This document shows, piece by piece, positions 5,704-7,440 of a stretch of 64,000 nucleotides of DNA (position 1 is its first letter; each line of letters opens with the position of its first letter). The stretch is from Shigella phage Sf21. The notes under the pieces are model-generated. The model made no database searches. It was not told the DNA's origin and saw nothing but the letters and a program-made list of their open reading frames with translations. The position numbers and the translations under genes were made by a program. Where the stretch lies: sequence record MF327007; one strand, 5' to 3'.

Positions 5704-6098
5704 CCTTCATCAACAACAGTATGCGTATTGGCATTTACGATTTGCCACCAATCAAAGCGATTAGAATCCATCGGTTTGTTTTCATTTTCTTTGATAATGT
5801 CACGGAGTTCATCTTCAGAGAATGCTTTAGCAATTAAATCGGTATACCCACCACGGGGATAATAATTATCACCTGCAAACAAAAGGAAATTTACCTTCCC
5901 GGAAGGAACATACGCTTCCTTAGGATACTTGTTTCCTGCGTGGTCAACCACTTCAATATAACGGTAAGGAATATCGGTTCTTTCAACCCATTGCCATGCC
6001 GCTGCAGGGGAATCGAAAGCATCTACACCTAAACGATTATCTTCATCTTTAGACGGATTATTTTCGTAATCCGCATATACATAATATTCAACGTTCAT
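5700..6098 (-). CDS. hypothetical protein
   Basis: 132-aa ORF overlapping neighbours. Confidence 0.5.
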   Translation of the reverse strand: MNVEYYVYADYENNPSKDEDNRLGVDAFDSPAAAWQWVERTDIPYRYIEVVDHAGNKYPKEAYVPSGKVNFLLFAGDNYYPRGGYTDLIAKAFSEDELRDIIKENENKPMDSNRFDWWQIVNANTHTVVDEG

Positions 6099-6283
6099 TA
6101 TTCACCTTTAGAAATTTTATCCATAACAATAGCAATTAAACCAATTAAAAATGCTACTACAAGTGAAAAAACATTTTCTGCCGTAGTCAATAATCCGCAT
6201 ATAAATCCAACAAACATTGAAAAACTGAAAGCGGAAGCAGAAATTGCAATAGCAACATTTCGAATTAATTCACAACGTTTCAT
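6098..6283 (-). CDS. small membrane protein (61 aa)
   Basis: ATG at 6281-6283 with AGGAGAATAAA SD; hydrophobic core FSFSMFVGFICGLLT...LVVAFLIGLIAIV; ORF-track start at 6424 is upstream of the promoter and unlikely. Confidence 0.5.
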   Translation of the reverse strand: MKRCELIRNVAIAISASAFSFSMFVGFICGLLTTAENVFSLVVAFLIGLIAIVMDKISKGE

Positions 6284-6311
6284 TTTATTCTCCTCAGTAG
6301 TTGATAGGGTA

Positions 6312-6341
6312 ATAGTATCACTACCCCATCTAAAAGTAAAC
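6312..6341 (-). promoter_or_regulatory. T4-type early promoter (conserved module copy)
   Basis: GTTTAC-N18-TACTAT; precedes 6098..6283. Confidence 0.7.
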
Positions 6342-6575
6342 TTATTTTTTACGAAAAATTGATTTATTTTCTGCTGCCCATTTTTCAATAACTGCAGCAG
6401 GACCAGTAACAACAATTTTATCACCGTAATCTTCTGCGGCGAGTTGACCGAAATTATCTAATGCATCACGAAGAACTCCATGAGGCATTTCACCCATTTT
6501 ATCTTTCTTGCCAGTGTAAATAAACTCAACTTTTACATCAGCAGTTTCAGCAATAAATTCTTGGTAAGTTTTCAT
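6342..6575 (-). CDS. virion internal protein (IP family) with capsid targeting sequence MKTYQEFIAE
   Basis: N-terminus matches the T4 internal-protein capsid targeting sequence; own early promoter at 6610-6639; start taken at second ATG. Confidence 0.65.
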   Translation of the reverse strand: MKTYQEFIAETADVKVEFIYTGKKDKMGEMPHGVLRDALDNFGQLAAEDYGDKIVVTGPAAVIEKWAAENKSIFRKK

Positions 6576-6609
6576 TTTGATTTCCATTTGGTTTTGTTTT
6601 GATAGGGTA

Positions 6610-6639
6610 ATAGTATCACAACTAAAACCCTATGTAAAC
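6610..6639 (-). promoter_or_regulatory. T4-type early promoter (conserved module copy)
   Basis: AATTTCACAAAGTTGTTTAC-N18-TACTAT; precedes IP gene 6342..6575. Confidence 0.75.
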
Positions 6640-6651
6640 AACTTTGTGAAA

Positions 6652-6909
6652 TTATTTTAAATCTTCTAATCGTTTTTTCATCTTAGAACCATTTTTAGCA
6701 ATTTCTCCTGCATCGGAGCATAATGCTAAAAGTGCTTTAACTTTCGTTTGGTCTCCTTTAAAAGATGAAGGATCTACTGCAGCAGCAAGTTCTTTAATAC
6801 GAGAGAAAAGACGCTCAGCTTCAGCTAAAGCCATTCCAAGCTTTACTTCCATACCGTGGGAAGATTCAGTGATAGTAGTTTTTGTAGTAAACTCTTTGAA
6901 AGTTTTCAT
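6652..6909 (-). CDS. virion internal protein (IP family), ipI-position gene
   Basis: N-terminus MKTFKEFTTK...TE is capsid-targeting-like; SD AGGAAAAT; own early promoter at 6940-6969; adjacent to 57B as ipI is in T4. Confidence 0.6.
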   Translation of the reverse strand: MKTFKEFTTKTTITESSHGMEVKLGMALAEAERLFSRIKELAAAVDPSSFKGDQTKVKALLALCSDAGEIAKNGSKMKKRLEDLK

Positions 6910-6939
6910 TTTATTTTCCTAATTAATTTTGATGAGATA

Positions 6940-6969
6940 ATAGTATCACTACCTCATCAGCATGTAAAC
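6940..6969 (-). promoter_or_regulatory. T4-type early promoter (conserved module copy)
   Basis: AATTTCACAAAGTTGTTTAC-N18-TACTAT; precedes IP gene 6652..6909. Confidence 0.75.
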
Positions 6970-6981
6970 AACTTTGTGAAA

Positions 6982-7440
6982 TTATTTTAAATCATCTGCC
7001 CAATCGAGTTTAAGAGGCTCTTTGTATTCACGATCTAATACGACCGGAATTTGTACATCACCGCTAAATGATAAGGGCCCAACATTATAAGACAATGTTA
7101 TATGCGGTGTGTAATCATCAAAATCATGTGTAGCACCTAGTGCCCGCGCATACATGTGTCGACAGCGCAGATATTCAGAATCTAGCACAAGTACAAGAGT
7201 CGATCCATCTTGTGTTTTCCACACTTCTAAATGTCCAGAAGAAGCTACTTCAAAACTTCCACTCGATGGAACATATGGAACATTTACTCTTGAATAACAT
7301 ATAGTCGAATGAATTTTTTCTCTAGGAACTGGATTAGGAACACGTAAAGAGCGCTGGAGTTCTTCCAGCGCGTCAAGTGTTAATTCTGAAAACTTAGCTG
7401 CTACATAAAGACCCGTTGAAAAGTCTTTAAATTCCATCAT
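6982..7440 (-). CDS. 57B: gene 57B protein; 2H phosphoesterase fold, Acb1-like anti-CBASS nuclease
   Basis: 152 aa as in T4 57B; two H-x-T/S motifs (HSTICYS, HITLSY); synteny 57B-57A-1. Confidence 0.75.

What the first reader, a model, noticed from the sequence alone, without database searches (positions are those of the whole stretch)
6098..7440. Anti-defence island: two internal-protein genes with capsid-targeting N-termini, each behind its own early promoter, next to 57B (Acb1-like)
ORFs 6342..6575 and 6652..6909 begin with MKTYQEFIAE and MKTFKEFTTK...TE, matching the capsid targeting sequence that routes T4 internal proteins into the head for co-injection with DNA. Each is preceded by a copy of a conserved early promoter module. 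In T4 this locus holds IPI, a restriction inhibitor, and is reported as hypervariable among T-even phages. The mature ~70-aa proteins here do not resemble anything I can name, so they are candidate injected inhibitors of unknown host defences. The neighbouring 57B has two H-x-T/S motifs, consistent with the 2H phosphodiesterase fold of the anti-CBASS nuclease Acb1.
Basis: partly seen in the sequence, partly recalled or inferred. Interest (0 to 1): 0.7.

Follow-up and report, generated by a model that had tools for sequence, protein, structure and literature searches.

The report
Known T-even internal protein genes
This is the already-described internal-protein locus of a T2/T6-like coliphage: two small proteins (Ip5, Ip6), predicted to be packed into the phage head and injected with the DNA, sit next to the known anti-CBASS nuclease Acb1. 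A 2025 preprint shows that a protein identical to Ip6 blocks the host McrBC restriction enzyme.

Summary
ORFs 6652-6909 and 6342-6575 start with capsid-targeting leaders. Each follows a copy of a ~70-nt early-promoter/stem-loop module, and a third copy precedes trna.4. The neighbouring 57B is 100% identical to T4 gp57B, which is Acb1 itself.

Nothing here is new. The two genes are ip5 and ip6, and UniRef records for phages RB70 and T2 already call the first one Ip5. Phage T6 has both genes at this position, T2 carries Ip5, and about 250 sequenced phages carry them. The promoter modules match the published PeSL cassettes that shuffle genes in T4-type genomes.

Ip6 is 77/77 identical to Bas37_0260. 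A November 2025 preprint shows that Bas37 needs this gene to escape E. coli K-12 McrBC. Ip5 still has no known target. Genes named ip4-10 showed no reproducible effect on a GmrSD panel. The preprint's supplementary data show that Ip5 insertion mutants are depleted on strain CFT073.

Structure models give a generic helical hairpin for Ip5 and a ferredoxin-like fold for Ip6. Neither turned up IPI* or any characterised inhibitor. Novelty: already known. Interest is low.

The parts
6982..7440 (-). 57B = acb1, anti-CBASS 2H phosphoesterase (152 aa; HxT motifs at H44-T46 and H113-T115)
   Evidence: Pfam PF23474 Acb1, E 2.6e-60. 151/151 identical to T4 gp57B. PDB 7t26 Acb1, E 4e-62. Motif positions. 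T4 57B was shown to be Acb1 with an H44/T46/H113/T115 tetrad in PMC9117128.
6927..6997 (-). PeSL-type early promoter module of ip5: AT-rich upstream part, -35 TTTACA 6963-6968, -10 TACTAT 6940-6945, hairpin 6930-6959 overlapping the -10
   Evidence: Repeat family D1. Promoter scan. Hairpin -14.8 kcal/mol, z -4.75. Nearly identical to the sequence upstream of T4 ipI.
6652..6909 (-). ip5, 85 aa: propeptide residues 1-15 (6865-6909, MKTFKEFTTKTTITE), predicted mature Ip5* of 70 aa, pI 9.2, helical hairpin
   Evidence: ORF. phrog_3499 'internal head protein', E 2e-49. Annotated Ip5 in fFiEco06, JB75, T6 and CM8. UniRef names Ip5 from RB70 and T2. At least 90% identical in about 267 phage records. 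AF2 pLDDT 69.6.
6597..6667 (-). PeSL-type early promoter module of ip6: -35 TTTACA 6633-6638, -10 TACTAT 6610-6615, hairpin 6602-6633
   Evidence: Repeat D1 reference copy. Promoter scan. Hairpin -13.7 kcal/mol, z -3.79. Its upstream part overlaps the last codons of ip5.
6342..6575 (-). ip6, 77 aa: propeptide residues 1-10 (6546-6575, MKTYQEFIAE), predicted mature Ip6* of 67 aa, pI 6.5, ferredoxin-like beta-alpha-beta-beta-alpha-beta fold; identical to Bas37_0260 (anti-McrBC)
   Evidence: ORF. phrog_8111 'internal virion protein', E 1e-52. 77/77 identical to bas37_0260. Found in 244 phage records. AF2 pLDDT 79.1. The BFVD model of VR7 Ip6 matches with TM 0.95. McrBC phenotype from bioRxiv 10.1101/2025.11.20.689424.
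6299..6369 (-). Third, weaker copy of the promoter module, before trna.4: -35 TTTACT 6335-6340, -10 TACTAT 6312-6317, hairpin 6303-6330; its upstream part overlaps the 3' end of ip6
   Evidence: Repeat D1 copy, 62% identical. Exact GTGATACTATTA core. Hairpin -16.1 kcal/mol, z -4.65. Aligned with the T4 trna.4 promoter.
6098..6286 (-). trna.4, 62-aa predicted membrane protein of unknown function (conserved right-hand border of the variable locus)
   Evidence: ORF. phrog_1692, E 6e-35. Annotated Trna.4 predicted membrane protein in T4.
8023..8030 (-). TATAAATA late-promoter-like box inside gene 1, upstream of 57A-57B-ip5-ip6; a possible source of the late transcripts needed to supply Ip proteins to proheads (inference only)
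   Evidence: Pattern search. No terminator-like site was predicted between it and ip6.

Best explanation
The stretch is the 'ipI locus' of a T4-like coliphage (Tequatrovirus), in the arrangement that phage T6 has at this position. On the minus strand it reads acb1/57B, ip5, ip6, trna.4.

Shown by sequence:
- ip5, ip6 and trna.4 each sit behind a ~70-nt PeSL cassette. The cassette has an AT-rich stretch, a sigma-70-type -35/-10 spaced 17 nt apart, a hairpin overlapping the -10, a Shine-Dalgarno sequence and an ATG.
- Related phages carry different cassettes at this site: ipI alone, ip5 alone, ip6 alone, ip5+ip6, or ip5-ipI-ip8. The junctions fall inside the shared promoter core.

Inferred from established T4 biology:
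- Ip5 and Ip6 are made with N-terminal capsid-targeting propeptides that bind them to the prohead core.
- The gp21 protease trims them after ITE15 (Ip5) and IAE10 (Ip6).
- The 70-aa and 67-aa mature proteins stay in the head with the DNA and are injected with it, so they can act before any phage gene is expressed.

Shown in a preprint for an identical protein: Ip6 protects the phage from McrBC, the type IV restriction enzyme of E. coli K-12. My inference is direct binding of McrB or McrC, by analogy with IPI*. I also infer that this matters because T2/T6-type DNA leaves part of its hydroxymethylcytosine unglucosylated.

Ip5's target is unknown. I think it most likely inhibits another strain-specific first-response defence. 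Acb1 degrades CBASS cyclic-nucleotide signals. The PeSL repeats probably serve both as early promoters and as homology patches for cassette exchange.
For: Identity of the locus:
- 5700-7700 is 99.5% identical to Escherichia phage 107, and 207 phage records contain at least 80% of it.
fFiEco06 and JB75 annotate ip5 and ip6.

CTS and cleavage:
- Ip6's first 10 residues equal those of T4 IpII and IpIII.
- According to review PMC9026906, the first 10 residues of IPIII suffice for packaging, residues 4 and 7 are critical, gp21 cuts after L/I-x-E, and IP propeptides are 10-19 aa long.
- Cutting T4 IPI after ITE19 gives the published 76-aa IPI*. Ip5 has the parallel ITE15.

Cassettes:
- Repeats, promoter scan, chimeric junctions across 10 phages.
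- Hairpins with z -3.8 to -4.75.
- 98% of cells paired, and 3 of 13 pairs changed on both sides, against 32-77% paired in the slid controls.
- This matches the published PeSL description, in which the stem-loop lies between -35 and -10 or overlaps the -10.

Function:
- Ip6 is 77/77 identical to bas37_0260.
- Disrupting that gene gives a strong defect on K-12 BW25113 but not on the delta-RM variant. The knockout is specifically McrBC-sensitive. Mean insertion counts were 8.4 on K-12 against about 300 on the clinical isolates.
- T4 Ip1, Ip2 and Ip3 each block a distinct GmrSD enzyme.
- Acb1.
Against: - I found no virion proteomics or N-terminal sequencing for Ip5 or Ip6. Packaging, cleavage and injection are therefore inferred from the leader alone.
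- The McrBC result comes from a preprint and a different phage, though the protein is identical. The mechanism of inhibition is not known.
- Mature Ip6 is near neutral (pI 6.5), unlike the basic T4 IPs.
- Genes named ip4-10 gave no reproducible inhibition of eight GmrSD variants. T2, which carries Ip5, is restricted by CT596 GmrSD. The UTI89 enzyme restricts both T2 and T6.
- The promoters were not tested here. An early promoter alone does not explain supply of the proteins at the time of head assembly. The late promoter I propose (8023-8030) is only a consensus match.
- The covariation rests on 8 closely related sequences.
Confidence: 0.85

Rival explanations
1. Ip5 and Ip6 are mainly structural head components. 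They would act as small DNA-associated or scaffold-associated proteins that aid DNA condensation or prohead assembly, as proposed for IPIII, with no dedicated anti-defence role.
For: Mature Ip5 is basic (pI 9.2). T4 IPs are present at about 300 copies per head and were long assumed to bind DNA. IPIII mutants assemble heads more slowly.
Against: Insertions in both genes are fully tolerated in the Bas37 reference library (15/15 and 18/18 TA sites hit). The Ip6 defect appears only when McrBC is present. Ip6 is not basic. The locus is swapped freely between otherwise near-identical phages, which is unlike a structural requirement.
Confidence: 0.08
2. The proteins act after de novo early expression in the infected cell rather than by injection. 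On this view the leader is an inherited cassette feature, carried along with the promoter and ribosome-binding site, and is not needed for function.
For: Each gene has a strong early-type promoter. The leader-coding DNA is part of the conserved recombining module: D2 is 78% identical over 46 nt between ip5 and ip6. IPIII lacking its CTS still rescues phage when expressed in the host.
Against: A restriction enzyme attacks DNA on entry, so an inhibitor made only after transcription would come late. The leader is conserved 10/10 with a CTS shown to be sufficient for packaging, and the gp21 cleavage motif is kept. All divergent Ip6 relatives found among 1.84 billion representative proteins that cover the N-terminus keep the MKTYQEF leader.
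Confidence: 0.12
3. Ip5 is, like IPI, IPII and IPIII, an inhibitor of one particular GmrSD-family type IV restriction enzyme not included in the panels tested so far. One candidate is the GmrSD homologue c5421 of uropathogenic E. coli CFT073.
For: Every T-even internal protein with a known target inhibits a type IV enzyme. Ip5 occupies the ipI slot and shares IPI's leader. Insertions in bas37_0261 (84/85 identical to the window's Ip5) are depleted on CFT073 (log2FC -2.09, adjusted p 0.000) but not on CFE299 (-0.01). CFT073 carries a GmrSD homologue.
Against: A gene named ip5 was among the ip4-10 set that showed no reproducible effect on eight GmrSD variants. I could not confirm that it has the same sequence. 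The CFT073 depletion was not followed up by the authors and could reflect any defence or a non-defence factor. Insertions in neighbouring 57B are also mildly depleted there (-1.56).
Confidence: 0.3

Closest known systems
Ip5 and Ip6 as annotated in phage T6 (Ip5 also in T2, RB15 and RB70; the sequences behind the names probably date from Repoila et al. 1994, which I could not read)
   Same: Same genes. In T6, Ip5's mature part is 100% identical and Ip6 differs at one residue (V62I), in the same position between 57B and trna.4. UniRef entries 'Ip5' come from RB70 and T2.
   Different: The window's Ip5 has one substitution in the propeptide (A8T) relative to almost all other copies.
Bas37_0260 of Escherichia phage KarlGJung (Bas37), an McrBC inhibitor (bioRxiv 10.1101/2025.11.20.689424)
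   Same: 77/77 identical to the window's Ip6, with the same neighbours.
   Different: None at protein level. The phenotype was measured in Bas37, not in this phage.
T4 IPI / IPI* (inhibitor of CT596 GmrSD)
   Same: Same locus, nearly identical promoter, ribosome-binding site and first 8 codons as ip5, the same ITE cleavage motif and a similar size.
   Different: The mature domains are unrelated: 24% identity in a forced alignment. IPI* is described as beta-sheets flanked by helices. Ip5 is predicted to be a helical hairpin and Ip6 a ferredoxin-like fold. Their targets differ as well.
T4 IPII and IPIII
   Same: Their first 10 residues, MKTYQEFIAE, are identical to Ip6's. Both are injected inhibitors of specific GmrSD enzymes.
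   Different: They are encoded at a different locus (near gene e), their mature sequences are unrelated, and IPIII is much larger (193 aa).
Acb1 (T4 gp57B; structures 7T26/7T27 from Erwinia phage FBB1)
   Same: 100% identical to the T4 protein and has the HxT/HxT tetrad.
   Different: Nothing. It is the same protein rather than a relative.
PeSL (promoter-early stem-loop) cassettes of T4-type phages (Arbiol 2010; Comeau 2014)
   Same: AT-rich region, sigma-70-like promoter, stem-loop overlapping the -10, then SD and ATG. The cassettes flank variable ORFs, and the -35/-10 fit the published PST/T4 consensus TTTACW-N17-TAYWAT.
   Different: The hairpins here are not followed by a U-run, so they do not look like intrinsic terminators. 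Neither promoter nor attenuator activity was tested.

Membership tests
T4-type internal proteins (CTS-bearing, gp21-processed, injected) | N-terminal capsid-targeting sequence like MKTYQEFIAE, with the critical residues 4 and 7 | tested here: met
   Ip6 is 10/10 identical to the T4 IpII/IpIII leaders. Ip5's MKTFKEFT is 8/8 identical to the T4 IPI leader, with F4 and F7. The CTS rules come from PMC9026906.
T4-type internal proteins (CTS-bearing, gp21-processed, injected) | gp21 cleavage motif L/I-x-E closing a 10-19-residue propeptide | tested here: met
   IAE at residues 8-10 (Ip6) and ITE at residues 13-15 (Ip5).
T4-type internal proteins (CTS-bearing, gp21-processed, injected) | Physical presence of the processed protein in virions, and ejection into the host | not testable with these tools
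   No proteomic report for Ip5 or Ip6 was found in the searchable literature.
T4-type internal proteins (CTS-bearing, gp21-processed, injected) | Small basic mature protein | tested here: inconclusive
   Mature Ip5 is 70 aa with pI 9.2. Mature Ip6 is 67 aa with pI 6.5, which is not basic.
IPI*-like GmrSD inhibitors | Sequence or fold similarity of the mature domain to IPI* | tested here: not met
IPI*-like GmrSD inhibitors | Inhibits a GmrSD enzyme | not testable with these tools
   From the literature: ip4-10 gave no reproducible effect on the GmrSD panel. T2 and T6 are restricted by the UTI89 enzyme, and T2 also by the CT596 enzyme.
Bas37_0260-type anti-McrBC internal protein | Same protein sequence as the characterised gene | tested here: met
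   77/77 identical.
Bas37_0260-type anti-McrBC internal protein | Needed for growth only when McrBC is present | not testable with these tools
   Preprint data for Bas37 only.
Acb1 (2H phosphoesterase, anti-CBASS) | Match to the family profile above the curated threshold, and to a solved Acb1 | tested here: met
   PF23474 scores 202.7 bits against a cut-off of 27. 7t26, E 4e-62. Identical to T4 gp57B.
Acb1 (2H phosphoesterase, anti-CBASS) | Catalytic HxT/HxT tetrad (H44, T46, H113, T115) | tested here: met
   HST at 44-46 and HIT at 113-115. The tetrad is defined in PMC9117128.
PeSL regulatory cassettes | Sigma-70-like -35/-10 with an AT-rich upstream region, followed by SD and start codon | tested here: met
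   TTTACA-N17-TACTAT with TG. Aligned modules. They fit the published consensus TTTACW-N17-TAYWAT.
PeSL regulatory cassettes | Stable stem-loop within the promoter or overlapping the -10 | tested here: met
   -13.7 to -16.1 kcal/mol, z -3.8 to -4.75. 98% of cells paired, and 3 of 13 pairs changed on both sides.
PeSL regulatory cassettes | Copies flank variable ORFs, and recombination junctions lie inside the module | tested here: met
   Five different cassette combinations in 10 phages, with chimeric promoters.
PeSL regulatory cassettes | Measured promoter and attenuator activity | not testable with these tools
   Only consensus scans were possible. No U-tract follows the hairpins.

The most novel reading that the evidence does not exclude
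Ip5 would be an injected inhibitor of a defence not yet paired with any phage counter-measure. It is conserved at 100% in its mature part in more than 200 phages and has a 54%-identical relative in RB69-like phages. The clue is that Ip5 insertion mutants of Bas37 are specifically depleted on uropathogenic E. coli CFT073. The target could be a GmrSD variant outside the tested panels or a different first-response system.
Probability: 0.4. Interest if true: 0.4.

Novelty: already known. Interest (0 to 1): 0.18.

Why it matters
As a discovery it matters little. The genes, their leaders, the variable locus, the promoter cassettes and Acb1 are all in the literature and in public annotation.

What remains useful is practical. 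Many records still label these genes 'hypothetical protein'. PHROGs-derived annotation labels Acb1 'RNA ligase', and some records call Ip5 'ipI'. The evidence here ties the common Ip6 allele to McrBC evasion. It also points to Ip5 as one of the more widespread T-even internal proteins that still lacks a target, with a concrete host (CFT073) in which to look for one. That bears on predicting the host range of therapeutic T4-like phages.

Tried and rejected
- Pfam and NCBIfam scans of Ip5, Ip6 and trna.4 gave nothing significant.
- Profile searches of both families against PDB sequences gave only noise.
- An exhaustive profile search with the Ip6 alignment found five phage-type clusters and one spurious repeat protein, and no cellular relatives.
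- I considered whether Ip5 or Ip6 are diverged IPI. I rejected this because only the leaders align.
- I considered the hairpins as intrinsic terminators. I rejected this because no U-run follows them and the terminator scan found none in the locus.
- I considered the lack of a K-12 defect for insertions in ip5 (just upstream of ip6) as proof that ip6 has its own promoter. I rejected it as weak, because the transposon was built without a terminator to allow read-through.
- I could not open Repoila 1994, Rifat 2008 or Miller 2003. Attribution of the Ip5/Ip6 names to the 1994 work therefore rests on UniRef and GenBank notes and on my memory.
- Literature searches for virion proteomics of Ip5 or Ip6 found nothing.
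- I did not read the remaining Bas37 fitness tables (CFE303, CFE331, CFE336).
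Full report
**What is in the sequence**

Everything in the finding lies on the minus strand. Reading in the direction of transcription, the genes are:

| Coordinates | Gene | Product |
|---|---|---|
| 7667-8431 | gene 1 | dNMP kinase |
| 7437-7667 | 57A | tail-fibre chaperone |
| 6982-7440 | 57B | 152 aa |
| 6652-6909 | ip5 | 85 aa, MKTFKEFTTKTTITESSHG... 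|
| 6342-6575 | ip6 | 77 aa, MKTYQEFIAETADV... |
| 6098-6286 | trna.4 | 62-aa membrane protein |

After these come trna.3, trna.2, one more ORF and a cluster of 11 tRNA genes. A six-frame scan of the whole 64-kb window for the leader pattern M-K-[STA]-[YF]-x-[ED]-[FYL] returns only the two ORFs of the finding.

A 71-nt direct repeat lies before ip5 (6927-6997) and before ip6 (6597-6667). The 12-nt core GTGATACTATTA occurs exactly three times within 640 nt. A search allowing up to 1 mismatch gave 5 hits in the window against 0.55 expected. The first two copies score as TTTACA-N17-TACTAT with a TG extension.

**Where it comes from**

The 2-kb stretch 5700-7700 is 99.5% identical to Escherichia phage 107 and about 99% identical to many Tequatrovirus genomes. 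207 phage records hold at least 80% of it. The flanking 57B-57A-gene 1 block is present in about 500 records.

Public annotation already names the two ORFs. They are 'ip5' and 'ip6, putative internal head protein' in fFiEco06 and 'Ip5' and 'Ip6' in JB75. UniRef holds 'Ip5' entries from RB70 and T2.

By tblastn, Ip5 is at least 90% identical in about 267 records, including T2, T6, RB7 and RB68, and its mature part is usually 100% conserved. A 54%-identical relative (RB69ORF127c) occurs in about 226 RB69-like phages. Ip6 occurs in 244 records. PHROGs files them as phrog_3499 'internal head protein' and phrog_8111 'internal virion protein'.

**The leaders**

T4 IpII and IpIII both begin MKTYQEFIAE-A, so Ip6's first ten residues are identical to theirs. 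Review PMC9026906 states the following:

- The first 10 residues of IPIII suffice for incorporation into the head.
- Residues 4 and 7 matter for targeting, and residues 8 and 10 for processing.
- gp21 cuts after Glu in L/I-x-E.
- IP propeptides are 10-19 residues long.

T4 IPI begins MKTFKEFTSTTTPVSTITE-A. Cutting after that Glu leaves 76 residues, which is the published size of IPI*. Ip5 begins MKTFKEFTTKTTITE-S, the same leader type with the same I-T-E site. Predicted mature products are 70 aa (pI 9.2) for Ip5 and 67 aa (pI 6.5) for Ip6. Packaging, processing and injection are therefore well-founded inferences, but I found no direct virion data.

**The promoter modules**

The sequence upstream of ip5 is almost identical to that upstream of T4 ipI, through the ribosome-binding site and into the first codons.

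Each module folds into a hairpin that includes the -10 hexamer. The energies are -14.8, -13.7 and -16.1 kcal/mol, with z-scores of -4.75, -3.79 and -4.65 against shuffles. Across eight variants from different phages, 98% of cells pair and 3 of 13 pairs carry changes on both sides. With the 3' partners slid by 1-3 columns, only 32-77% pair. That sample is small and closely related.

This anatomy is the published PeSL (promoter-early stem-loop) cassette. [quoted passage not shown] PeSLs flank variable ORFs and are proposed to mediate modular shuffling. The consensus given for the PST/T4 pair, TTTACW-N17-TAYWAT, fits.

**The locus really is modular**

In ten phages I found five arrangements between 57B and trna.4:

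| Arrangement | Phages |
|---|---|
| ipI only | T4, UFV13 |
| ip6 only | RB18 |
| ip5 only | AR1, Shfl2 |
| ip5+ip6 | T6, fFiEco06, JB75, phage 107, the window |
| ip5-ipI-truncated 57B-ip5-ipI-ip8 | CM8 |

Every cassette has its own module, and the modules are chimeric. For example, the promoter before trna.4 in T4 and AR1 has the ip6-type upstream half joined to the trna.4-type leader. This places the crossovers inside the shared GTGATACTATTACCCTATC core.

**57B**

The protein matches Pfam Acb1 (E 2.6e-60) and the solved Acb1 structure 7T26 (E 4e-62). It is 100% identical to T4 gp57B. T4 gene 57B is the gene that defined Acb1, with an H44/T46/H113/T115 tetrad. The window has HST at 44-46 and HIT at 113-115. 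It is Acb1 itself, not merely Acb1-like.

**What Ip5 and Ip6 are like as proteins**

Both families are narrow. A word-indexed search of 5.8 billion proteins found only close relatives, at least 78% identical. An exhaustive profile search of 1.84 billion representatives with the Ip6 alignment found five real clusters. All are 36-84 aa, and those that cover the N-terminus keep the MKTYQEF leader.

| Protein | AlphaFold2 model | Fold-search result |
|---|---|---|

Neither search returned IPI* or any characterised inhibitor. Sequence searches of the PDB were empty.

**What is known about function**

T4 Ip1, Ip2 and Ip3 each inhibit a different GmrSD type IV restriction enzyme. In the same study, genes named ip4-10 from T4-like phages showed no reproducible effect on further GmrSD variants.

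The decisive item is the HIDEN-SEQ preprint (bioRxiv 10.1101/2025.11.20.689424). In phage Bas37, gene bas37_0260 lies 'at the same locus as' T4 ipI, a locus where Bas37 'encodes two different genes'. Disrupting it causes a strong defect on E. coli K-12 BW25113. There is no defect on a K-12 derivative lacking McrA, McrBC and Mrr. The knockout is specifically sensitive to McrBC.

Bas37 is Escherichia phage KarlGJung. Its bas37_0260 is the 234-nt gene next to trna.4 and is 77/77 identical to the window's Ip6. Its neighbour bas37_0261 is 84/85 identical to Ip5 and is mislabelled 'ipI'. Ip6 therefore already has an experimentally assigned target.

My inference from memory of T-even DNA chemistry: T2 and T6 leave about a quarter of their hydroxymethylcytosine unglucosylated, and T4 leaves none. 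That would explain why T6-type phages carry an injected McrBC inhibitor and T4 does not. Bas37 has a beta-alpha-glucosyltransferase, which is consistent with this. I did not test the association.

**A lead for Ip5**

The preprint's supplementary fitness tables give the following for bas37_0261:

| Comparison | log2FC | Adjusted p |
|---|---|---|
| CFT073 versus K-12 | -2.09 | 0.000 |
| CFE299 versus K-12 | -0.01 | 1.0 |

I fixed the identity of the two tables from the sheet order and from the 'Data S5' header that follows the second one. CFT073 carries a GmrSD homologue, c5421. The authors did not follow this up, and insertions in 57B are also mildly depleted there (-1.56). T2, which carries Ip5, is restricted by CT596 GmrSD. 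The UTI89 enzyme restricts both T2 and T6, so Ip5 and Ip6 do not block those enzymes.

**Verdict**

The claim to novelty is not. This is the ip5-ip6 arrangement of the ipI locus found in T6, bounded by PeSL cassettes and lying next to Acb1. It is a known kind and a known member. The remaining open question is Ip5's target.

Noticed in passing
window 2558-3031 (-), with 3068-3075 and about 3080-3105 upstream: A 157-aa ORF begins MKSYAQFLNE-AVLNE-A, a CTS-like leader with two L-N-E sites. It is preceded by a GC-rich hairpin with a T-run, then a TATAAATA late-promoter box about 37 nt before the ATG. It is labelled 'hypothetical protein' in all listed rows of about 510 matching phage records and falls in phrog_2280 (unknown). 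It equals bas37_0244 (97% identical), which is non-essential and shows no phenotype on CFT073 or CFE299. It could be an unrecognised packaged protein.
   Followed up: partly
window 513-1127 (-) and 1169-1762 (-): These two ORFs sit where T4 has e.5 and e.6 (phrog_2607 and phrog_1203, unknown function). They are 99% and 98% identical to bas37_0239 and bas37_0240. Insertion mutants of those genes are strongly depleted on uropathogenic E. coli CFT073 (log2FC -3.62 and -6.49) but not on CFE299, according to the HIDEN-SEQ supplement. They are candidate host-specific factors.
   Followed up: partly
L005 (Shigella phage CM8, NC_054939) 2002-4433: A tandem duplication at the same locus reads 57B, ip5, ipI, a truncated second 57B copy, ip5, ipI, ip8. 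Each gene sits behind a PeSL module. It looks like a snapshot of cassette amplification by recombination between the promoter repeats.
   Followed up: partly
window 6886-6888 (codon 8 of ip5): The window's Ip5 has Thr at propeptide residue 8, where nearly every other copy has Ala (MKTFKEFATK...). T4 IPI also has Thr there, which suggests a crossover inside the leader-coding DNA.
   Followed up: no
window 3784-4805 (-): The cluster holds 11 tRNA genes (Arg, His, Asn, Tyr, Met/CAU, Thr, Ser, Pro, Gly, Leu, Gln), against 8 in T4. The CAU tRNA that ARAGORN calls Met is annotated as Ile (ATA) in Bas37. There is no segB homing endonuclease between the tRNAs here, unlike in T4 and T6.
   Followed up: no
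window 4892-5407 (-): A 171-aa ORF (phrog_2290, unknown) lies between the tRNA cluster and trna.2. It is absent from T4 and T6, present in RB18 and AR1 ('similar to RB32ORF135c'), and replaced by a putative homing endonuclease in Bas37. This is another variable slot.
   Followed up: no
window 6982-7440 and public records: Many RefSeq and PHROGs-derived annotations call this Acb1 gene 'RNA ligase' (phrog_755), and several records label Ip5 'ipI'. Both are annotation errors that propagate.
   Followed up: no
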